In this document: one piece after another, positions 1 to 6,111 of the stretch
Position numbering within the stretch: position 1 is the first letter of the stretch
Layout: every line of letters begins with the position of its first letter
Virus record (IMG/VR): IMGVR_UViG_3300045988_009285
Reading direction: 5' to 3' (one strand)
Length of the DNA stretch: 6,111 nucleotides
Origin: a virus
The notes under the pieces: generated by a model
The model's database searches: none
What the model was told of the DNA's origin: nothing
The model's input: the letters and a program-made list of their open reading frames with translations, nothing else
Made by a program: the position numbers and the translations under genes

Positions 1-70
1 GTTTGAGCGTAAAGCAGCTAATTTTAACAAAGCTCTAGAAGCAGCCGAAGCAAAAATTGAAAAAATATGA
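1..70 (+). CDS. Partial CDS: the 3' end of the 43-aa basic ORF, a duplicate of 6023..6092 created by the terminal overlap
   Basis: Reading from nt 2 gives FERKAANFNKALEAAEAKIEKI then stop (TGA 68-70), identical to the C-terminus of ORF 5961..6092. Confidence 0.5.
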   Translation, partial: FERKAANFNKALEAAEAKIEKI

Positions 71-89
71 CGGATAGGGGAAAAAAAAC
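1..89. repeat. Terminal redundancy, copy 1 (identical to 6023..6111); a circularisation overlap, not a biological repeat
   Basis: A base-by-base comparison by eye at offset 6022 found no mismatch. The repeat boundaries cut through two ORFs. Confidence 0.95.
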
Positions 90-252
90 AGATGTGTTTG
101 TTATATTTGCGGTAGAATTCGTTAACGAAAATACAGGACAGGTGGTAACTCTAACTACCACATGTGGAAGCTACAGGGAGTTAGGGAAGTATCTAACAGA
201 AATGAACAAAAAGTCATGGAGAATGCTAAAAGCAACAAGGAAAGAAACTTAA
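67..252 (+). CDS. Hypothetical small protein, 61 aa
   Basis: The ATG at 67 overlaps the TGA of the preceding ORF (ATGA, 67-70), which suggests translational coupling. It is on the same strand as all the core genes. I recognised no motif. Confidence 0.5.
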   Translation: MTDRGKKTDVFVIFAVEFVNENTGQVVTLTTTCGSYRELGKYLTEMNKKSWRMLKATRKET

Positions 253-428
253 TTAAAATTATGATTGTAGCATGGATTATAGCAGCAACACTAGGGGGAT
301 GCGTGGTAAGTCTCAACATTCAGAAGAATAATCAAAACAGCACACAATCCGTATCGCAGGAAAACGAGGCGACTCAAAAAAATGATAGTACTAACTTTAA
401 AATGAATCTAAACAATGAAACAGAATGA
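216..428 (+). CDS. Putative small lipoprotein or signal-anchored membrane protein, 70 aa from Met216
   Basis: The product starts with a basic n-region (MENAKSNKERNLIK), then a hydrophobic stretch (IMIVAWIIAATL), then L-G-G-C (Cys29, lipobox-like). The remaining tail is hydrophilic and rich in N/Q/S/T/E. The longer ORF from 162 adds a non-signal-like extension. An alternative start at 261 would remove the basic n-region. Confidence 0.5.
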   Translation: MENAKSNKERNLIKIMIVAWIIAATLGGCVVSLNIQKNNQNSTQSVSQENEATQKNDSTNFKMNLNNETE

Positions 429-666
429 AATTGATACCAACGAAATCTACAAGGGAATTACAAGAGTCATAAAAACTAAAAAGCAAGACAAAGATGTATG
501 GTTTGCAGTAATCGGCAAAACAATTGTTTCACGTGGAACATTTAATACTAAAGAAGAATGTATAAAAGACCTGGAAAAAACTGATTATGAACAGATTTGT
601 AAGATTGCTATTGCTATTGCTACAGCTCTTAAGGATTATAAACCGGAAAAAGTAGAAAAAGTATGA
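415..666 (+). CDS. Hypothetical protein, 83 aa
   Basis: It overlaps the previous ORF by 14 nt, and its TGA (664-666) overlaps the VP1 ATG (663-665) as ATGA. It has a mixed charged and hydrophobic composition, with no motif I recognise. Confidence 0.6.
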   Translation: MKQNEIDTNEIYKGITRVIKTKKQDKDVWFAVIGKTIVSRGTFNTKEECIKDLEKTDYEQICKIAIAIATALKDYKPEKVEKV

Positions 667-2681
667 AAGTAAACATAGGAAAAAACACACTAGGTGACAA
701 CAATAAGATGTCCGTATCTCTAAGAGAATATGGACGCAGTACCCATGACCTGTCTTATGCGTGGAGGTCACCTATGGGAGTAGGTACACTTGTACCGTTT
801 ATGAAGCTACTGGCGTTACCAGGAGATACATTCGACATCGATTTGGACACAAAAGTGCTGACACATCCGACGGTAGGACCTCTATTCGGGCAATTCAAGA
901 TGCAATTGGACGTATTCACATGTCCATTAAGATTATACCAAGCTCAATTACATAATAATGCACTGAATATTGGGCTGGATATGAAGAAAGTGAAACTGCC
1001 TAAATTCGAAAACAACTTTCAGGTATTAAAAGATGACAAGGCACCGTTTAAAAAATCAAAAAAATCAGGAAAAGGAAGTCTGGCAGAATACCTGGGACTG
1101 AAGTATGAACCTATCAGAGATAAAGTCAACAATGTCAATGCAGTACCTTACTTTGCGTATTACGATGTGTTCAAAAACTTCTACGCCAATAAACAGGAAG
1201 ATTACTTCATGATAATGGGAGGAGGAGTCTTCGTAAGTAATGGAACGGTCACAACAAAGGATACAATACTATATAAAGTAGATAATGCAGGATTATATAT
1301 TAATAGGAAAAATGCTCAAGGAGAAATCGCTAATAAACCCATTCAATTCACAATGTCAAAAGAGTTATGGGAAGCATCAAAAAAAGAGAATACGGTAACA
1401 CTCTACTACGACGTAGATACTGAACCTGTAGGTATTAAGATTAATGGAATTAATTCGTATATCGAAAGTGAAACAGAATCTGGTAACGAAGTAACGGTTA
1501 ATTGCAGAAATAAAACAAAATTAGTATTCGCAGACAAAGAGTTAAGCACGGGAGTTCACACAGCAACAGGAAAGGCATGGACTTCATCACAAGGAGTATG
1601 GATACCATCATACACCAGCTCTTACAAACTTGAAGAAATTGACAACTTAAGGGAGTATATTCTAAAGCAAGGCAAAAAGGAAGTCCTAATAAAGTCTAAT
1701 TCTACGGATGAATGGATAGGAACATCATTCATTAAGGATGTACTGGTAGGGACGGCTAAAGCAGGAGAAAGTGAACCAAAAATCAAGATGCCAATTATTC
1801 AGATGGAGATGGGCGGACTATGCCTAAAGACGCTGCAAAGCGACATCTTTAACAACTGGGTAAACAAAGAGTGGGTAGACGGAGATAATGGAATAAAAGC
1901 AATTACTGACGTAGCAATAACTGACGGGAAACTGAACTTGGACAGCCTGAATATTGCACAGAAGGTATACAACATGCTAAACCGTATTGCAGTGTCAGGA
2001 GGAAGCTATAAGGACTGGATCGAGACGGTATATACTACAGACTATTATTTCAGAGCAGAAACACCTGTATACGAGGGTGGTATGTCTACAATAATTGACT
2101 TTGAAGCCGTAGTAAGTAACTCGGCAAGTACAGCAAGCGGTGTAGAAGAGCCATTGGGAAGCCTGGCAGGACGTGGATACAACGGGCAGAAAAAAGGCGG
2201 AAGGATTGAGATTAAAGTCAATGAACCTTGTTATATCATGGGTATTGCAAGCATTACGCCACTGGTAGACTACTCCCAGGGTAACGACTGGGACAACTGG
2301 CTGGAGACTATGGATGATTTACACAAGCCGCAGCTAGATGGTATCGGTTATCAGGATTTGATGGAAAACAAGATGCACGGACTGGCAAAACCGTCACTGG
2401 CAATAGGAAAGCAGCCTGCATGGCTGGACTACATGACCAACTTCAATAAGACATTCGCAGATTTCGCAGCAGGTGAACAGGAAAGCTATATGGTACTGAA
2501 CCGTATCTACAATGTGGATGACAAGGGAAATATCACAAATTCAACAACATATATCAATCCAAAAGACTACACATATATCTTTGCGACCAACACAGAGACC
2601 AACAGAGACTTCTGGGTACAGATTGGCTGCGGAGTAACCTCAAGACGAGTAATGAGCGCAGCTCAGATTCCATTAATGTAA
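663..2681 (+). CDS. VP1: Major capsid protein VP1 (Microviridae F-protein family), 672 aa
   Basis: The N-terminal block ...GTLVPFMKLLALPGDTFDIDLDTKV...GPLFGQFKMQLDVFTCPLRLY carries the LPGDTF signature typical of microvirus capsids. AVPYFAYYDVFKNFYANKQ matches the conserved (L)P(F)xAYxxIxNxxY block. LNIAQKVYNMLNRIAVSGGSYKDWIETVY matches the conserved R-A-x-x-Q-x-x-x-E-x-x-A-R-G-G-x-R-Y-like block. It is the largest ORF in the window. Met16 (nt 708) is a possible alternative start. Confidence 0.95.
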   Translation: MKVNIGKNTLGDNNKMSVSLREYGRSTHDLSYAWRSPMGVGTLVPFMKLLALPGDTFDIDLDTKVLTHPTVGPLFGQFKMQLDVFTCPLRLYQAQLHNNALNIGLDMKKVKLPKFENNFQVLKDDKAPFKKSKKSGKGSLAEYLGLKYEPIRDKVNNVNAVPYFAYYDVFKNFYANKQEDYFMIMGGGVFVSNGTVTTKDTILYKVDNAGLYINRKNAQGEIANKPIQFTMSKELWEASKKENTVTLYYDVDTEPVGIKINGINSYIESETESGNEVTVNCRNKTKLVFADKELSTGVHTATGKAWTSSQGVWIPSYTSSYKLEEIDNLREYILKQGKKEVLIKSNSTDEWIGTSFIKDVLVGTAKAGESEPKIKMPIIQMEMGGLCLKTLQSDIFNNWVNKEWVDGDNGIKAITDVAITDGKLNLDSLNIAQKVYNMLNRIAVSGGSYKDWIETVYTTDYYFRAETPVYEGGMSTIIDFEAVVSNSASTASGVEEPLGSLAGRGYNGQKKGGRIEIKVNEPCYIMGIASITPLVDYSQGNDWDNWLETMDDLHKPQLDGIGYQDLMENKMHGLAKPSLAIGKQPAWLDYMTNFNKTFADFAAGEQESYMVLNRIYNVDDKGNITNSTTYINPKDYTYIFATNTETNRDFWVQIGCGVTSRRVMSAAQIPLM

Positions 2682-3123: not shown

Positions 3124-4206
3124 ATGGGATTCTTAAATTTTTTAGACAAAGGAGGAGGCGGCCTGATTACAGGAATTGCCAACACAATAACAGGAGCTGT
3201 ACAGAACAAACAGGCACTGGCATGGCAGAAGGAACAGTGGCAGCAACAGATGCAGTACGGACGAGAGATGTGGGAGAAGCAGAACCAGGCAGAAAATGAC
3301 CGTATGGCGCTGCAAAACCAGTGGAACAAGGATGCAGCAGCACAGTCTCAACAGTATGCCAAAGAGATGTTTGACTACACGGGATACGAGAACCAGGTGA
3401 AGCAGATGAAAGCAGCAGGACTAAATCCGGCACTGATGAACGGTGGCGGAGGTTCAGCGGGACAAGCAAGTGCAGGAGCCGAAGTACAGCCAGCACAGGC
3501 ATTTCAGCCGATGGGAATACAGATGGCATTACAGGCACAGCAAGTAATGGCTAACACTCAGCTAGCTAATGCTCAGGCTCAGAAGACAAGAGCCGAGGCT
3601 ACGGCACAGAACATGCAGAACCTGGTAGGCAGTAGCATCGACCTGGCTCAGAAGATTGCCGAGATTGGCAGGACAAAGCAGGAGAAAAAGAACCTGGAAG
3701 TTACCTACGCCAAAACAAAGGAAGAGGTCGAGAAAGTTCAGGAAGAAGTCAATAACCTTATGCTACAGGGAGATATATTGAAAGAAAACAAAGAACTGCT
3801 TGAATTCCAGAACGGAGTGAACAAAATTATCAAGAATGGAATACACTTCGATAGCAAAGGTAAAGAGATAGATTGGGAGCAGTCAGTACTCATGAGATAT
3901 TTCGGGCCTCTCGGTAAGGAAATAGCACAATGGGATAAAGACGAGCAGCAGGCACTGTTCGACAAAGGTGTCCTGGAGCGCATGATGAAAGATATAGACG
4001 CCATTGCAACAGGAAAGACAAACGAATTCTCACTAGCGGGAATGAAGTTCGACTTAATGCAGAAACAGTGGGAAAGAGCAGACTTCGAGCTGGAGCAGGA
4101 CAAGGCAGCATCCAAGCTGCTTGATGAGATGACAGGCGAAGGAGAATATGCGAGACTGCTAGGTAAGGTCTTGAAGCTACTGTTAATAGACCGCAAAAGC
4201 AAGTAA
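3124..4206 (+). CDS. VP2: Minor capsid / DNA pilot protein VP2 (functional analogue of phiX H), 360 aa
   Basis: The N-terminus is glycine-rich (DKGGGGLITGIANTITG). The central motif QVKQMKAAGLNPALMNGGGGS matches the AAGLNP(M/A)L signature I associate with gokushovirus-type VP2. Long heptad-like helical regions rich in Q, A, E and K are consistent with a coiled-coil tube. The position between VP1 and VP4 also fits. Confidence 0.85.
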   Translation: MGFLNFLDKGGGGLITGIANTITGAVQNKQALAWQKEQWQQQMQYGREMWEKQNQAENDRMALQNQWNKDAAAQSQQYAKEMFDYTGYENQVKQMKAAGLNPALMNGGGGSAGQASAGAEVQPAQAFQPMGIQMALQAQQVMANTQLANAQAQKTRAEATAQNMQNLVGSSIDLAQKIAEIGRTKQEKKNLEVTYAKTKEEVEKVQEEVNNLMLQGDILKENKELLEFQNGVNKIIKNGIHFDSKGKEIDWEQSVLMRYFGPLGKEIAQWDKDEQQALFDKGVLERMMKDIDAIATGKTNEFSLAGMKFDLMQKQWERADFELEQDKAASKLLDEMTGEGEYARLLGKVLKLLLIDRKSK

Positions 4207-4281
4207 GTCGCGCGCGTACGTATATCGCACACGCACGGAATCAGCTTGACGGTCATATTATGGGCGTGACCCACAAGGGGT

Positions 4282-4344
4282 CGGGCTTTCCGCTGCAATT
4301 CCTCCTTCGCTTCGCTCTGTGCGGGATTTCCGCTGCAATCCCTC
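4282..4344 (+). repeat. Two copies of a 23-nt direct repeat, cgggNtttccgctgcaatNcctc (4282..4304 and 4322..4344), identical at 21 of 23 positions, period 40 nt
   Basis: Aligned by eye, with mismatches only at repeat positions 5 and 19. The repeat lies in the GC-rich VP2-VP4 intergenic region. The spacer contains the tandem cttcg-cttcg. Confidence 0.85.
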
Positions 4345-4409
4345 ACGCGCTATGCAGAATTCGCTACTATATGGCGCGCAATCGCCGCGCGGCTAGCATA
4401 CATAACAAC

Positions 4410-4465
4410 AAGAGGTCGGACCAACAGAAGATGGTAACATCATCGGAAGAAGGTTGCGACCTCTT
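4410..4465 (+). other. Compound stem-loop in three parts: an outer stem, a helix and an apical hairpin
   Basis: The outer 9-bp stem pairs aagaggtcg (4410-4418) with cgacctctt (4457-4465). After a 3-nt bulge there is a 4-bp helix (4422-4425 with 4453-4456). The apical hairpin is gatg-gtaa-catc (4430-4441). All pairings were read directly from the sequence. The structure ends about 50 nt upstream of the VP4 start. Confidence 0.6.
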
Positions 4466-4516
4466 ATTGCTATGTATGGATGTTATTTTAAAGTAAAACT
4501 TAAACAATTATATGGT

Positions 4517-5536
4517 ATGTGCCTGTATACTAAGTATTTATTAAACAAAAAGTATTTACCGACAAAGAAAAATGAATATAATCCGCCAACATGCAATGAC
4601 GAAAGATTGAGATATGTGCCGATAAAGTGCGGGAAGTGCATGGAGTGCCGAAAACAAAAGAAAAGAGAATGGTACGTGCGGCTGTCAGAAGAGTTGAAAC
4701 AGCACAAGGGAGCACTATTCGTGACTCTGACATTCAATGAAGATATGTATGAAGAGACGCGCAAGGCCGTGAAGGCAGGAAACCAGCCGACCTATGAAGA
4801 AGAGAATGACATGTGCCGTTATGCGATAAGACACTGGCTGGAACTGATACGCAAAAGAACGGGAAAGTCCGTCAAGCACTGGGTAATTACAGAGAAAGGT
4901 GAAGACTATAACCGCATACACATGCACGGTATAGTATGGTGCAAAAAAGAAGACGTAGACGCATGGCGTTACGGATATACCTATATAGGGGATTATGTCA
5001 ACGGCAAAACAATCAACTATATAACCAAGTATATGCTGAAAATCAACGAGATATGTCCTGAATTCGAGGGGAAAGTATTCTGCAGTAAAGGTATTGGCCG
5101 AAATTACGAAAAAAGCACAAATGCAAGGCGTAACAGATACCAGGGAGAACGTACTATCGAGACTTACAAGGCAGAGGACGGCCGAGAACTGCCAATGCCA
5201 AAGTACTACCACGACAAGATATACTCAGAAGAAGAGCGCGAAAAGTTATGGATTATCAAACAGGAAAGAGGATACAGATACATAGGAGGTGAAAAGTGCA
5301 GTACAGAAGACCTCGAAGAATGGGATAACTTAACAAGATATTATCAGAGACGGGGTGTAGAAGTATTCGGAGACAAGCCAGACGAATGGGAAAAAAATAA
5401 ACAGCGAAAGCGCCTGGAACGTATGCGTATAGCCAGACGTCGGATGCGCGAAGGTTCCGAAGTTCCCGGAGTTCTCTCCAGACCAGAAGGTAGGGAGCCT
5501 GCGGCTCCGATTATTAACAAGGCTACGCGCGGCTAG
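4517..5536 (+). CDS. VP4: Replication initiation protein VP4 (HUH rolling-circle endonuclease, phiX A-protein family), 339 aa from Met4517
   Basis: There is a Cys cluster, CGKCMECRKQKKREW. RCR motif I is FVTLTF (4718-4735). Motif II is the HUH sequence HMHGIVW (H-M-H at 4919-4927). Motif III, YITKY (5018-5032), has two Tyr residues spaced as in phiX A (YVAKY). An N-terminus of MCLYTK... matches the usual MC... start of microvirus VP4, so I prefer 4517 to the ORF-track start at 4454, which lies within and just downstream of the 3' arm of the upstream hairpin. Confidence 0.92.
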   Translation: MCLYTKYLLNKKYLPTKKNEYNPPTCNDERLRYVPIKCGKCMECRKQKKREWYVRLSEELKQHKGALFVTLTFNEDMYEETRKAVKAGNQPTYEEENDMCRYAIRHWLELIRKRTGKSVKHWVITEKGEDYNRIHMHGIVWCKKEDVDAWRYGYTYIGDYVNGKTINYITKYMLKINEICPEFEGKVFCSKGIGRNYEKSTNARRNRYQGERTIETYKAEDGRELPMPKYYHDKIYSEEEREKLWIIKQERGYRYIGGEKCSTEDLEEWDNLTRYYQRRGVEVFGDKPDEWEKNKQRKRLERMRIARRRMREGSEVPGVLSRPEGREPAAPIINKATRG

Positions 5537-5905: not shown

Positions 5906-5935
5906 TTTGTGTTTTCAAAAAAATGCGTATATTTG
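5906..5935 (+). promoter_or_regulatory. Candidate Bacteroidota-type promoter: a -33 TTTG (5906-5909) and a -7 TAnnTTTG (tatatttg, 5928-5935)
   Basis: The -7 element matches the Bacteroides primary-sigma consensus TAnnTTTG exactly, with a TTTG 18 nt upstream. It sits 25 nt upstream of the ATG at 5961, which opens the long co-directional gene string. None of the gene starts has a Shine-Dalgarno sequence, as is typical of Bacteroidota. Confidence 0.5.
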
Positions 5936-5960
5936 TAATGTAATAAAAAAACAAAGAATT

Positions 5961-6092
5961 ATGAAGAATTATATGATTTATCTAGAAAGGAAAGACAGAC
6001 GTAGAACGTATAGGTACTTTAGGTTTGAGCGTAAAGCAGCTAATTTTAACAAAGCTCTAGAAGCAGCCGAAGCAAAAATTGAAAAAATATGA
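5961..6092 (+). CDS. Small, highly basic protein of 43 aa; candidate DNA-binding or packaging peptide (functional analogue of phiX J)
   Basis: The sequence is MKNYMIYLERKDRRRTYRYFRFERKAANFNKALEAAEAKIEKI. It has 13 Lys/Arg in 43 residues, 9 of them within residues 10-25. It is the first ORF after the candidate promoter, and its TGA overlaps the next ATG (ATGA at 6089-6092, equivalent to 67-70). The ORF-track start at 5907 lies upstream of the predicted promoter -7 box, so 5961 is preferred. Confidence 0.5.
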   Translation: MKNYMIYLERKDRRRTYRYFRFERKAANFNKALEAAEAKIEKI

Positions 6093-6111
6093 CGGATAGG
6101 GGAAAAAAAAC
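6023..6111. repeat. Terminal redundancy, copy 2 (identical to 1..89)
   Basis: Same as copy 1. It contains the 3' end of ORF 5961..6092 and the first 23 nt of the ORF that starts at 67 (equivalent to 6089). Confidence 0.95.

What the first reader, a model, noticed from the sequence alone, without database searches (positions are those of the whole stretch)
216..428. Tiny putative lipoprotein or signal-anchored protein in a microvirus: candidate lysis or superinfection-exclusion factor
From Met216 the 70-aa product has three parts. The n-region is basic (MENAKSNKERNLIK) and the core is hydrophobic (IMIVAWIIAATL). The sequence L-G-G-C (Cys29) then fits the lipobox pattern [LVI][ASTVIG][GAS]C reasonably well. 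The 42-residue mature part (CVVSLNIQKNNQNSTQSVSQENEATQKNDSTNFKMNLNNETE) is hydrophilic, rich in Asn, Gln, Ser and Thr, and probably disordered. Outside the phiX group, where the small membrane-anchored E protein blocks MraY, microviruses have no generally accepted lysis gene. Small phage lipoproteins elsewhere act as outer-membrane spanin subunits (Rz1 type) or as receptor-blocking exclusion factors (T5 Llp type). The gene is wedged between its neighbours, overlapping the upstream ORF by 37 nt in another frame and the downstream ORF by 14 nt. That arrangement recalls how phiX accommodates E.
Basis: inference. Interest (0 to 1): 0.7.

Follow-up and report, generated by a model that had tools for sequence, protein, structure and literature searches.

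The report
Conserved small lipoprotein of gut microviruses
A 70-residue gene in this 6-kb gut microvirus is real and strongly conserved, and it almost certainly makes a tiny sugar-tagged lipoprotein exported into the envelope of a Bacteroides-type host; it is the best candidate for how these phages break out of the cell without a cell-wall enzyme, but no function has been tested.

Summary
ORF 216-428 is a real gene. More than 1,200 homologues exist, and every one whose contig or source I saw comes from a microvirus-sized contig. Its dN/dS is 0.18 in frame, against 0.9 and 2.4 out of frame, and it is as conserved as the capsid and Rep proteins. The 70-aa form is the right one; the 88-aa extension is not conserved.

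The lipoprotein reading is well supported. The Cys is invariant, position -1 is always G, S or A, and the other lipobox positions vary.

Three things are new. The "disordered" mature peptide is the most constrained part (dN/dS 0.076). Its only invariant residues besides Cys29 are Q48 and D57-S58, and D57-S58-T59 is the Bacteroidota O-glycosylation sequon. The gene never co-occurs with the M15 peptidase plus small membrane-protein cassette found in related genomes, including the only cultured Bacteroides microvirus.

Host evidence points to Bacteroidota: a position-conserved promoter, no Shine-Dalgarno sequences, and a related prophage in a Bacteroidales genome.

The best reading is a periplasm-facing, glycosylated lipopeptide that acts as a single-gene lysis or egress factor (about 0.4). 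Receptor-blocking superinfection exclusion is the main rival (about 0.25). The protein belongs to no known family. The comparison with phiX174 E is not supported.

The parts
216..428 (+). Gene for the 70-aa prolipoprotein (stop codon included)
   Evidence: ORF. 921 and 1,298 homologues. dN/dS 0.18 in frame against 0.94 and 2.39 out of frame.
216..257 (+). Basic n-region of the signal peptide (M1-K14, net charge +2). Nucleotides 216-252 also encode the end of the upstream ORF.
   Evidence: Read from the sequence. dS is lower here (0.49) than in the mature part (2.27), as expected for dual coding.
258..293 (+). Hydrophobic h-region I15-L26 (IMIVAWIIAATL)
   Evidence: It lies within the only strongly hydrophobic 17-residue stretch (nt 258-308, IMIVAWIIAATLGGCVV) in any + strand frame of the window, apart from one in a 29-codon stop-to-stop fragment. 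AF2 models residues 2-38 as a helix. dN/dS 0.36.
291..302 (+). Lipobox L26-G27-G28-C29. Cys29 (nt 300-302) is the predicted lipidated first residue of the mature protein.
   Evidence: LGGC is invariant in close relatives, and both Cys codons are used. More distant relatives have LGSC, AGSC, LSSC, LTGC, VSAC, LAGC, VQSC, LQAC, GVSC and xEGC. Position -1 is G, S or A in 72 of 72 distinct sequences.
300..425 (+). Mature 42-residue peptide C29-E70
   Evidence: dN/dS 0.076 with saturated synonymous change (pS 0.71). pLDDT is below 50 from residue 44 onward. No acidic residue at +2 to +6 in any of 72 sequences, so there is no Bacteroidota surface-export signal (PMC5080379).
303..332 (+). Conserved segment just after the Cys (V30-N39, VVSLNIQKNN), with alternating hydrophobic and polar residues
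   Evidence: V30, S32, L33, N34, Q36 and N39 are invariant in close relatives. N34 is nearly invariant across the whole family. Variants TMSLSVSKNN and TNMLSIQKN occur in other subfamilies.
384..392 (+). D57-S58-T59: the Bacteroidota general O-glycosylation sequon D-[S/T]-[A/I/L/V/M/T]
   Evidence: D57 and S58 are two of only four invariant positions across the divergent family (five, counting the start Met). 229 of 231 full-length database members keep DST, DSA or DSI about 29 residues after the Cys, and the other two are frameshifted. 70 of 72 distinct sequences keep a sequon. The motif definition is from PMC12871550.
162..215 (+). In-frame upstream extension (the 88-aa version). It is not part of this gene; this stretch encodes part of the upstream ORF in another frame.
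   Evidence: Stops lie immediately upstream of the Met in L009, L012 and L014. Gene callers mostly report 66-72 aa.
67..252 (+). Upstream conserved 61-aa ORF (unknown function) that overlaps the lipoprotein gene by 37 nt
   Evidence: Present in 18 of 19 related genomes, dN/dS 0.21. A weak counterpart exists in the peptidase-type genome L022.
415..666 (+). Downstream conserved 83-aa ORF (unknown function) that overlaps the lipoprotein gene by 14 nt and the capsid gene by 4 nt
   Evidence: dN/dS 0.26. A homologue is also present in the peptidase-type genome L022 (E=9e-7), so it is not a partner specific to the lipoprotein.
5906..5935 (+). Bacteroides-type promoter consensus (TTTG-N19-TAnnTTTG), about 330 nt upstream of the gene on the circular map
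   Evidence: It is the only full match in the window and is not significant alone (78 of 200 shuffles). In 40 of 59 lipoprotein-bearing genomes a coding-strand match lies 300-1,000 nt upstream of the lipoprotein stop codon.
663..2681 (+). Major capsid protein gene, downstream in the same gene string
   Evidence: Pfam Phage_F and phrog_514. The order small ORF, lipoprotein, small ORF, capsid is kept even in relatives whose lipoprotein is only 31% identical.

Best explanation
The gene encodes a 70-aa prolipoprotein made by a Bacteroidota-infecting microvirus.

Step 1 (inferred from sequence and conservation): the basic n-region and 12-residue hydrophobic core send it through Sec. The host lipoprotein enzymes (Lgt, then signal peptidase II) lipidate Cys29 and cleave in front of it.

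Step 3 (inferred from the invariant D-S-T sequon and published rules): the host's general O-glycosylation system glycosylates Ser58.

Step 4 (the least certain step, inferred from gene content and distribution): the tethered, unfolded glycolipopeptide is the phage's single-gene lysis or egress factor. It would damage the envelope from the periplasmic side. It could block a periplasmic or lipid-linked step of wall synthesis, or it could switch on host autolytic or phospholipase activity, as the small colicin lysis lipoproteins do. In related genomes an M15 peptidase plus a small membrane protein would fill this role instead.

I put steps 1-3 at about 0.8 and the lysis role at about 0.4-0.45. 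The confidence given here (0.42) is for the whole statement, lysis role included.
For: Real and essential-looking gene:
- 921 and 1,298 homologues; every one whose contig or source I saw is from a microvirus-sized contig, and one 23-kb contig is a concatemer.
- No copy in 185,579 reference genomes.
- dN/dS 0.18.
- Mean identity 0.72, against 0.66 for capsid, 0.67 for Rep and 0.53 for the pilot protein.
- Each capsid clade carries its own subtype, so the gene is inherited vertically.
- Its position just upstream of the capsid gene string is kept down to 31% identity.

Lipoprotein:
- Cys invariant, position -1 always G, S or A, positions -2 and -3 variable.
- It passes the PROSITE PS51257 pattern and position rules.
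- Helix 2-38, with the rest unfolded.

Glycosylation and host:
- An invariant D-S-[T/I/A/V] sequon matches the published motif, which is nearly fully occupied in non-cytoplasmic proteins (PMC12871550).
- A position-conserved Bacteroides-type promoter.
- No Shine-Dalgarno sequences.
- A related prophage sits between lon and lipid A genes in a 104-kb Paludibacteraceae contig. It carries an analogous 67-aa lipoprotein (LTSC lipobox, D-T-A sequon) immediately upstream of its capsid gene.

Lysis:
- The genome has no peptidase, endolysin or holin.
- The signal region is the only hydrophobic segment in a + strand reading frame longer than 29 codons.
- Among 61 complete relatives, 47 have the lipoprotein and no peptidase, 5 have the M15 peptidase and no lipoprotein, none has both, and 9 have neither (Fisher p=3e-4; peptidase identified).
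- L022, L039 and L047 also carry a small membrane-protein ORF; in L022 and L047 it directly follows the peptidase gene (L039).
- The cultured B. fragilis microvirus phiHBP1 has the peptidase and no lipoprotein homologue.
- In L022 the counterparts of the two flanking ORFs abut each other with no lipoprotein gene between them.
- Small lipoproteins that lyse their producer are known: the colicin lysis proteins (PMC2896534).
Against: - No experiment exists for any family member.
- SignalP and LipoP could not be run.
- G, Q or E at position -2 is atypical for the classical lipobox.
- The lipobox pattern alone fires equally often on the non-coding strand.
- The exclusivity with the peptidase rests on only two to four independent peptidase lineages, so it is weak once phylogeny is considered.
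- Nine complete genomes have neither feature by my detection. Three of them (L023, L025, L046) carry an undetected lipoprotein-like ORF.
- About half of non-cytoplasmic Bacteroidota proteins carry a sequon somewhere, so a sequon is unremarkable in itself. Only its invariance is notable.
- No target or mechanism of envelope damage can be named.
- A core, well-conserved gene could also serve exclusion or another periplasmic function.
Confidence: 0.42

Rival explanations
1. Superinfection exclusion, or protection of progeny, by receptor inactivation (T5 Llp or Cor type). [quoted passage not shown] This changes the receptor's surface loops so that further virions neither adsorb to infected cells nor are wasted on debris.
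For: The architecture matches Llp, a small phage lipoprotein that faces the periplasm, binds the plug of FhuA and acts by reverse allostery (PMC9586334). There is no surface-export signal. The gene lies close to the capsid gene, as llp lies next to the T5 receptor-binding gene. A related lineage exists as a prophage that carries an analogous lipoprotein, and exclusion genes pay off in prophages. An unfolded peptide that folds on binding would explain strong conservation without a predicted fold.
Against: Exclusion genes are usually accessory and variable. This one is as conserved as the capsid and Rep proteins and is present in every close relative whose contig covers the region. The mature peptide is nearly identical across genomes whose capsids are only 76-84% identical. 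The gene never co-occurs with the peptidase cassette, which exclusion would not predict. It shows no similarity to any Llp, Cor or other exclusion family in Pfam, PHROGs or PADLOC. Llp has a folded domain with a Cys11-Cys58 disulphide; this protein has one Cys and no predicted fold. In the one cultured relative, susceptibility tracks capsule phase variation rather than a protein receptor.
Confidence: 0.25
2. An uncleaved signal-anchored (type II) membrane protein rather than a lipoprotein. The 21-residue stretch I15-I35 would span the inner membrane with the C-terminal tail in the periplasm. The protein would act there as a phiX174 E-like or MS2 L-like membrane-embedded lysis protein.
For: The hydrophobic stretch continues past the Cys (IMIVAWIIAATLGGCVVSLNI), and AF2 models one helix over residues 2-38. 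Known single-gene lysis proteins of small phages are membrane-embedded. G, Q or E at position -2 is unusual for a lipobox.
Against: A plain membrane helix has no reason to keep an invariant Cys preceded by G, S or A in 72 of 72 sequences while its neighbours vary. The residues after the Cys alternate hydrophobic and polar (S32, N34, Q36) and are replaced by GSTWRVSG in one subfamily, which is not membrane-like. Selection is strongest on the polar tail, not on the hydrophobic segment (dN/dS 0.076 against 0.36).
Confidence: 0.1
3. A periplasmic lipoprotein with some other role in infection that is neither lysis nor exclusion. Examples are remodelling of capsule or outer-membrane vesicle production, or interference with competing phages or host envelope stress systems.
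For: Export, the tether and the sequon say only where the protein acts. In Bacteroides, capsule and phase-variable surface structures govern phage susceptibility. No target can be inferred from the sequence.
Against: A 6-kb genome with about eight genes leaves little room for non-essential functions. This reading leaves the phage with no lysis gene at all. It does not explain why the gene never co-occurs with the peptidase cassette.
Confidence: 0.15
4. A chance ORF, or conservation that reflects a DNA or RNA element or the overlapping genes rather than a protein.
For: The ORF is short, its composition is low-complexity, it partly overlaps both neighbours, and the lipobox pattern is common by chance in these genomes.
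Against: Synonymous sites are saturated (pS 0.71) while replacement sites are held (pN 0.15) in the non-overlapped mature region. The other two frames show dN/dS of 0.94 and 2.39. The ORF is intact in all 18 related IMG/VR genomes retrieved with it and is recognisable at 31% identity in the same position.
Confidence: 0.01

Closest known systems
Colicin lysis proteins (bacteriocin release proteins, Kil/Cel; Pfam Lysis_col)
   Same: They are tiny prolipoproteins: 47 aa including a 19-aa signal, which leaves a mature part of about 28 aa. The mature peptide is polar, is lipidated and processed on the periplasmic side, and is sorted by Lol. Expression causes quasi-lysis and is lethal when high (PMC2896534). 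Like this gene, the lysis gene sits in one transcription unit with the product to be released.
   Different: No sequence relationship: no Pfam hit for the window protein or for any of 58 family members. Colicin lysis proteins are plasmid genes of Enterobacteria, not phage genes of Bacteroidota. They have no glycosylation sequon and act through outer-membrane phospholipase A, for which no counterpart is shown here.
T5 Llp and the Cor lipoproteins of T1/phi80-like phages (superinfection exclusion)
   Same: They are small phage-encoded lipoproteins that face the periplasm from the outer membrane, and they are encoded near the receptor-binding gene (PMC9586334).
   Different: No sequence similarity. 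Llp is a folded domain with a disulphide, whereas this peptide has one Cys and no predicted fold. Llp and Cor are accessory genes, whereas this is a core gene of its clade.
Rz1-type outer-membrane spanin subunits
   Same: They are small phage lipoproteins, about 40 aa when mature, whose genes overlap a neighbour.
   Different: This mature peptide has no proline and no second Cys. No inner-membrane spanin partner exists, because neither neighbour has a transmembrane segment. The neighbours also occur in genomes that lack the lipoprotein. The genome has no endolysin or holin for a spanin to follow.
phiX174 protein E and other single-gene lysis proteins of small phages
   Same: It would be the one small membrane-targeted protein of a very small lytic phage that has no wall-degrading enzyme.
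   Different: E is an uncleaved membrane protein that acts on MraY from within the inner membrane, and its gene lies wholly inside gene D (my own knowledge; Roux et al. 2012, PMC3394797, report that E inhibits cell-wall synthesis). This gene has its own coding space with short terminal overlaps, a cleavable lipoprotein signal and a periplasmic effector part. There is no sequence similarity.
Entericidin B (small bacteriolytic lipoprotein of E. coli)
   Same: It is a lipoprotein of about 48 aa annotated as a toxin (NCBIfam NF007487). An analogous lipoprotein in the related prophage L024 gives a sub-threshold match to it over the signal peptide (E=0.015).
   Different: The match is far below the family cut-off (15 bits against 94) and covers only the signal region. 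The window protein itself gives no match.

Membership tests
Bacterial lipoproteins (signal peptidase II substrates; PROSITE PS51257 rule) | Positively charged n-region, uncharged h-region, and lipobox [LVI..][ASTG..][GAS]-C with the Cys at residue 15-35 | tested here: met
   K5, K8, R10 and K14; a 12-residue core; LGGC with Cys29. It passes my implementation of the pattern and position rules. The same rule fires as often on the non-coding strand, so the pattern alone is weak evidence.
Bacterial lipoproteins (signal peptidase II substrates; PROSITE PS51257 rule) | Evolutionary retention of the Cys and of a small residue at -1 | tested here: met
   Cys invariant and position -1 G, S or A in 72 of 72 distinct family sequences, with 22 different lipobox tetrapeptides.
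Bacterial lipoproteins (signal peptidase II substrates; PROSITE PS51257 rule) | Diacylglyceryl modification and globomycin-sensitive cleavage | not testable with these tools
   This needs labelling or mass spectrometry. SignalP 6 and LipoP were not available.
Bacteroidota general O-glycoproteins | D-[S/T]-[A/I/L/V/M/T] sequon in a non-cytoplasmic, soluble segment | tested here: met
   D57-S58-T59 lies in the exported part. 229 of 231 database members and 70 of 72 distinct sequences keep DST, DSI, DSA, DSV or DTI. The motif is as defined in PMC12871550.
Bacteroidota general O-glycoproteins | Glycan actually attached | not testable with these tools
   This needs glycoproteomics in a Bacteroidota host.
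Bacteroidota surface-exposed lipoproteins | Lipoprotein export signal: acidic residues at about +3 to +6 after the Cys (K-(D/E)2, SDDDD) | tested here: not met
   None of 72 sequences has D or E at +2 to +6. The signal definition is from PMC5080379.
Colicin lysis proteins (Pfam Lysis_col) | Sequence membership in the family | tested here: not met
   No Pfam hit at E<=0.1 for the window protein, and none at E<=0.01 for 58 family members.
Colicin lysis proteins (Pfam Lysis_col) | Expression causes quasi-lysis that depends on lipid modification | not testable with these tools
   Experimental.
Spanins (Rz1-type outer-membrane subunit, or unimolecular spanin) | Partner inner-membrane spanin gene that overlaps or lies adjacent, or a C-terminal transmembrane domain in the same protein | tested here: not met
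   Apart from the signal region, the only hydrophobic segment on the + strand lies in a 29-codon stop-to-stop fragment, so neither neighbouring ORF and no part of the C-terminus has one. The downstream neighbour is also present in a genome that lacks the lipoprotein.
Spanins (Rz1-type outer-membrane subunit, or unimolecular spanin) | Proline-rich mature part with a periplasmic Cys; endolysin and holin in the genome | tested here: not met
   No Pro and no second Cys in the 42 mature residues. No endolysin or holin family in any ORF.
Llp/Cor superinfection-exclusion lipoproteins | Sequence or fold relationship to Llp or Cor | tested here: not met
   The only PHROG matches are weak ones to families of unknown function. 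There are no significant Pfam or PADLOC hits and no PDB sequence match. The model has no folded domain, so a fold search would be meaningless.
Llp/Cor superinfection-exclusion lipoproteins | Blocks adsorption by binding the phage receptor | not testable with these tools
   The host strain and receptor are unknown.
phiX174 E-type lysis proteins | Uncleaved N-terminal transmembrane domain; gene embedded in another gene | tested here: not met
   The overlaps are only 37 and 14 nt. The conserved small-residue-then-Cys motif points to cleavage. Selection is concentrated on the polar tail.

The most novel reading that the evidence does not exclude
The protein is a new type of single-gene lysis factor: a periplasmic glycolipopeptide whose invariant D-S-T sequon is the active site of the mechanism. 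By engaging, and perhaps jamming, the still-unidentified oligosaccharyltransferase of the Bacteroidota general O-glycosylation pathway, it would trap undecaprenyl-phosphate-linked glycans. That would starve cell-wall synthesis of its lipid carrier and so hit the same lipid-linked precursor pathway as the known small-phage lysis proteins (E on MraY, LysM on MurJ), but from the periplasmic side. If true, it would also give a handle for finding the missing transferase.
Probability: 0.06. Interest if true: 0.9.

Novelty: new variant of a known kind. Interest (0 to 1): 0.68.

Why it matters
Microviruses are among the commonest phages of the human gut. Lysis is understood only for the phiX174 group, and some other lineages carry a borrowed M15 peptidase.

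This work defines a large family of small lipoproteins that is restricted to microviruses and has never been named. In GenBank its members are "hypothetical protein" or not annotated at all. The family is a core gene of many Bacteroidota-type microvirus clades and fills the gene slot of lineages that lack the peptidase.

That turns "how do these phages get out?" into a one-gene experiment. If the protein is a lysis factor, it would be the first lipoprotein-type single-gene lysis protein of a phage, a route to a new envelope target in Bacteroides, and possibly the first phage protein that depends on the host's O-glycosylation system. If it is an exclusion factor, it would point to the receptor of these uncultured phages.

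The sequon together with the conserved promoter also gives a sequence-only way to assign such microviruses to Bacteroidota hosts.

Tried and rejected
- **Near-identical DNA and tblastn of the protein against GenBank phages:** no match. A sister subfamily matches records where it is "hypothetical" or unannotated. A third subfamily has no match.
- **Protein-pattern scan of 185,579 reference genomes:** no true hit. No prophage of this exact clade was found, so there is no direct host link.
- **The 23-kb contig carrying a homologue:** it is a head-to-tail concatemer, not a prophage.
- **AF2 with a 58-sequence alignment:** only the signal helix is confident, so I ran no fold search.
- **Pfam, PHROGs, NCBIfam, PADLOC and PDB sequence searches:** only sub-threshold hits to signal or transmembrane regions such as FliL, DUF3531, "smalltalk" and entericidin B. 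The JGI names FliL, Lpp and LolB on some homologues are most likely artefacts of the same kind; the FliL match was reproduced at sub-threshold scores.
- **A second lysis candidate, the 78-aa ORF at 4260-4496 with a mildly hydrophobic stretch:** rejected. The ORF is absent or in other frames in relatives, and the region is a GC-rich non-coding spacer with indels that are not multiples of three.
- **Neighbouring ORFs as spanin-like partners:** rejected.
- **Lipobox pattern as stand-alone evidence:** rejected after the reverse-strand control.
- **Promoter match in the window alone:** not significant. Only its conserved position across genomes counts.
- **Literature searches for a microvirus lipoprotein or lipobox:** nothing relevant.
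Full report
**What the window is.** The 6,111 bases are a complete microvirus genome with an 89-nt terminal repeat, which makes a 6,022-nt circle at 41% G+C. All genes are on the + strand:
- a 61-aa ORF (67-252);
- the 70-aa ORF of the finding (216-428);
- an 83-aa ORF (415-666);
- the major capsid protein (663-2681; Pfam Phage_F, phrog_514);
- a 110-aa ORF;
- the DNA pilot protein (3124-4206);
- the replication initiator.

The capsid is less than 50% identical to anything in GenBank phages, and 5 of the 299 matching records carry Parabacteroides in the organism name. No peptidase, endolysin or holin is detectable.

The ORF is clearly not a chance one. A protein search returned 921 homologues, nearly all 66-72 aa long, and a profile search returned 1,298. 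In 19 genomes (the window plus 18 IMG/VR relatives), dN/dS is 0.18 in this frame and 0.94 and 2.39 in the other two.

The 88-aa form is wrong. In several relatives a stop codon lies immediately upstream of the Met.

One caution came out of a control. A PROSITE-type lipobox rule fires as often on the non-coding strand of these A+T-rich genomes (37 hits) as on the coding strand (40 hits). The pattern alone therefore proves nothing, and the case rests on conservation.

**The gene is a core gene of a large clade.** Across eight genomes that have all seven genes, its mean amino-acid identity is 0.72. That is higher than capsid (0.66), Rep (0.67) and pilot (0.53), and its dN is the second lowest in the genome.
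- An exhaustive profile search of 1.8 billion cluster representatives found relatives down to about 31% identity.
- The two distant relatives I looked up lie in the same place: small ORF, lipoprotein, small ORF, and (where the contig reaches far enough) a capsid gene of about 670 aa.
- A capsid-based scan of IMG/VR brought in 62 further genomes with capsids 40-48% identical.
- A family HMM found the lipoprotein in most of them, in recognisable subfamilies...VQSC|TMSLSVSKNN...VDST.ININPKNY...GVSC|TNMLSIQKN...ADSTSINLFNK...LQAC|TMSMSIAKNN...VDSTK, and a more distant ...EGC|GSTWRVSGNTVNVNNKC.NDSI.HHNDTI.
- Each capsid clade has its own subtype, so the gene has been inherited vertically with the capsid.

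The family appears restricted to microviruses. Every homologue whose contig or source I saw sits on a contig of about 8.6 kb or less; the single 23-kb contig is a concatemer. None was found in 185,579 reference genomes. In GenBank, subfamily members are "hypothetical protein" or unannotated.

**Lipoprotein reading.** Across 72 distinct family sequences the Cys is always present and is always preceded by G, S or A. Position -3 is usually L, V, I, F, M or A. There are 22 different lipobox tetrapeptides, including LGGC, LGSC, LSSC, LTGC, VSAC, LAGC, VQSC and LQAC.

A plain transmembrane helix would not show that pattern. It is the pattern expected for recognition by signal peptidase II. G, Q or E at position -2 is unusual for the classical box and is a point against.

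AF2, run with a 58-sequence alignment, gives a confident helix over the signal region. It gives pLDDT below 50 for residues 44-70, so the tail has no fold of its own. SignalP and LipoP could not be run.

**Constraint on the mature peptide.** That agrees with the model, but this region is the most constrained part of the protein: dN/dS is 0.076 with saturated synonymous sites, against 0.36 for the hydrophobic core.

Across the divergent family the only invariant positions are Cys29, Gln48, Asp57 and Ser58. Asn34 and Thr59 are nearly invariant.

D57-S58-T59 is exactly the sequon of the Bacteroidota general O-glycosylation system, D-[S/T]-[A/I/L/V/M/T]. According to a 2025 review, that system acts only on non-cytoplasmic proteins, occupies the sequon almost fully, and glycosylates engineered sequons (PMC12871550).
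- 229 of 231 full-length database members keep DST, DSA or DSI about 29 residues after the Cys. The two exceptions are frameshifted.
- In the other subfamilies the third position varies only among T, I, A, V and L.
- No family member has an acidic residue at +2 to +6. The Bacteroidota signal for export of lipoproteins to the cell surface is therefore absent (PMC5080379), and the peptide should stay on the periplasmic side.

**Host.** Four independent lines point to Bacteroidota.
1. The sequon, as above.
2. No gene has a Shine-Dalgarno sequence; the leaders are A-rich.
3. A full Bacteroides-type promoter consensus (TTTG-N19-TAnnTTTG; the consensus is from my own knowledge of Bayley et al. 2000) lies at 5906-5935. 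It is not significant alone. However, in 40 of 59 lipoprotein-bearing genomes a coding-strand match lies 300-1,000 nt upstream of the lipoprotein stop codon, where about 7 would be expected from random placement.
4. A capsid relative (36% identity) is integrated in a 104-kb Paludibacteraceae contig between lon, an aminotransferase gene and a lipid A acyltransferase gene. That prophage has an analogous 67-aa lipoprotein (lipobox LTSC, sequon D-T-A) immediately upstream of its capsid gene.

The promoter position also places the lipoprotein in the gene string that leads into the capsid gene.

**What it most likely does.** The phage needs a way out of the cell, and the genome has no wall-degrading enzyme. 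Apart from a 29-codon stop-to-stop fragment, the lipoprotein signal is the only strongly hydrophobic segment in any + strand frame. The one other ORF with a mildly hydrophobic stretch (4260-4496) is not conserved and lies in a structured non-coding spacer.

Among the capsid relatives, six genomes carry an M15 peptidase (Pfam PF08291). Three of them (L022, L039, L047) also carry a small membrane-protein ORF, which directly follows the peptidase gene in L022 and L047 (L039). None of the six has the lipoprotein.

Among 61 complete genomes the counts are 47 with the lipoprotein only, 5 with the peptidase only, 0 with both and 9 with neither (Fisher p=3e-4). The peptidase genomes form only two to four lineages, so the phylogenetically independent evidence is thin.

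The only cultured Bacteroides microvirus, phiHBP1, has the peptidase and no lipoprotein homologue. In the peptidase-type genome L022 the counterparts of the two flanking ORFs abut each other with nothing between them. That fits exchange of one lysis solution for another, and it shows that the neighbours are not lipoprotein-specific partners.

Small lipoproteins that lyse their producer exist. The colicin lysis proteins are 47-aa precursors that are lipidated, sorted by Lol, and lethal when over-expressed (PMC2896534).

I therefore favour a tethered, glycosylated periplasmic lipopeptide that acts as a single-gene lysis or egress factor. I put about 0.8 on the lipoprotein, periplasm and sequon part, and about 0.4-0.45 on the lysis role. 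How it would damage the envelope is unknown.

**Rivals.** The main rival is receptor-blocking superinfection exclusion of the T5 Llp type (about 0.25). Llp is a periplasm-facing lipoprotein that binds the plug of FhuA and closes surface loops (PMC9586334). The architecture and the gene's position near the capsid gene fit this reading. The gene's core status, its near-invariance across diverged capsids, the lack of a folded domain and its complementarity with the peptidase cassette fit less well.

The other rivals are an uncleaved signal-anchor (about 0.1) and some other periplasmic role (about 0.15). A chance ORF is excluded.

**Comparison with known families.** The protein belongs to no described family in Pfam, NCBIfam, PHROGs, PADLOC or the PDB.
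- It works most like a colicin lysis protein or like Llp, but it is a member of neither family.
- It fails the spanin tests: no partner, no proline, no second Cys, no endolysin.
- It fails the phiX174 E tests: it is not embedded in another gene, and the motif points to cleavage.

Short terminal overlaps are ordinary in compact phage genomes.

**Verdict.** The function remains open, with lysis ahead of exclusion. What is new is a large, unnamed, microvirus-restricted family of small lipoproteins with an invariant host glycosylation sequon. This is a new variant of the known kind "small phage or plasmid lipoprotein effector".

Noticed in passing
window 1-89 and 6023-6111: There is an exact 89-nt terminal direct repeat, so the window is a circular genome of 6,022 nt that has been cut and over-read. 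The listed 61-aa ORF at 5907-6092 runs into the repeat.
   Followed up: yes
window 5906-5935 (+): A full Bacteroides-type promoter consensus TTTGTGTTTTCAAAAAAATGCGTATATTTG lies in the Rep-to-small-genes spacer. In 40 of 59 related genomes a match sits in the same relative position. It is useful as a sequence-only host marker.
   Followed up: yes
window 4207-4516: The pilot-to-Rep spacer is G+C-rich and full of inverted repeats such as GGCGCGCAATCGCCGCGCGGC, with blocks conserved across relatives and indels that are not multiples of three. The 78-aa ORF at 4260-4496 is not conserved. The spacer could hold the replication origin or a Xer/dif-like integration site.
   Followed up: partly
window 4454-4517: Rep probably starts at ATG 4517 (MCLYTKY...), which matches the conserved MCLYP start of relatives. 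The listed TTG at 4454 and the ATG at 4472 are less likely, because the sequence upstream of 4517 is not conserved in frame.
   Followed up: partly
L022 2759-3243; L039; L047 468-999; L048; L056; L072: Related microviruses carry an M15 peptidase. L022, L039 and L047 (plus L045, where no peptidase was detected) also have a conserved 30-48-aa membrane-protein ORF (for example MEFPMGEVTAAVIAIVSYIMGLFTKNKKVDK); in L022 and L047 it directly follows the peptidase gene. This may be a holin-like partner that has not been described for microviruses.
   Followed up: partly
L023 (contig binned as Faecalimonas) and L024 (Paludibacteraceae, 104 kb): The two loci share a near-identical prophage-flanking sequence: the same 65-aa reverse-frame ORF appears at L023 241-438 and L024 3862-4059. 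L023 therefore looks like a fragment of the same Bacteroidales integration that was mis-binned into a Firmicutes MAG.
   Followed up: partly
L090 (JGI 3300005315, 23,483-bp contig): This contig is a head-to-tail concatemer of nearly four copies of a 6-kb microvirus genome. It is an assembly or amplification artefact, not a prophage.
   Followed up: yes
L063 730-933 (VQSC subfamily): The signal-peptide part gives a near-threshold match (20.7 bits against a cut-off of 24.7, E=2.6e-4) to the 29-residue NCBIfam model for the "smalltalk protein". That name is used for a B. thetaiotaomicron gene, BT_RS08645. The meaning is unknown.
   Followed up: partly
window 67-252 and 415-666: The two small flanking ORFs are conserved families of unknown function (dN/dS 0.21 and 0.26). 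The upstream one has a V-N-x-x-T-G-[QE]-[VI] motif that recurs in L022, L023 and L024. The downstream one has D-x-W-F-x-V-x-G-x-x-I-V-S...F-x-T-K-E.
   Followed up: partly
L025 (scaffold in an Acinetobacter lwoffii assembly, 5,673 bp): This is a complete-looking microvirus contig inside an Acinetobacter genome assembly, with a capsid 47% identical in the best-matching segment. It carries a 56-aa ORF with ...MEQGC and a D-S-I sequon upstream of the capsid gene. It is probably a contaminant contig rather than evidence for an Acinetobacter host.
   Followed up: no
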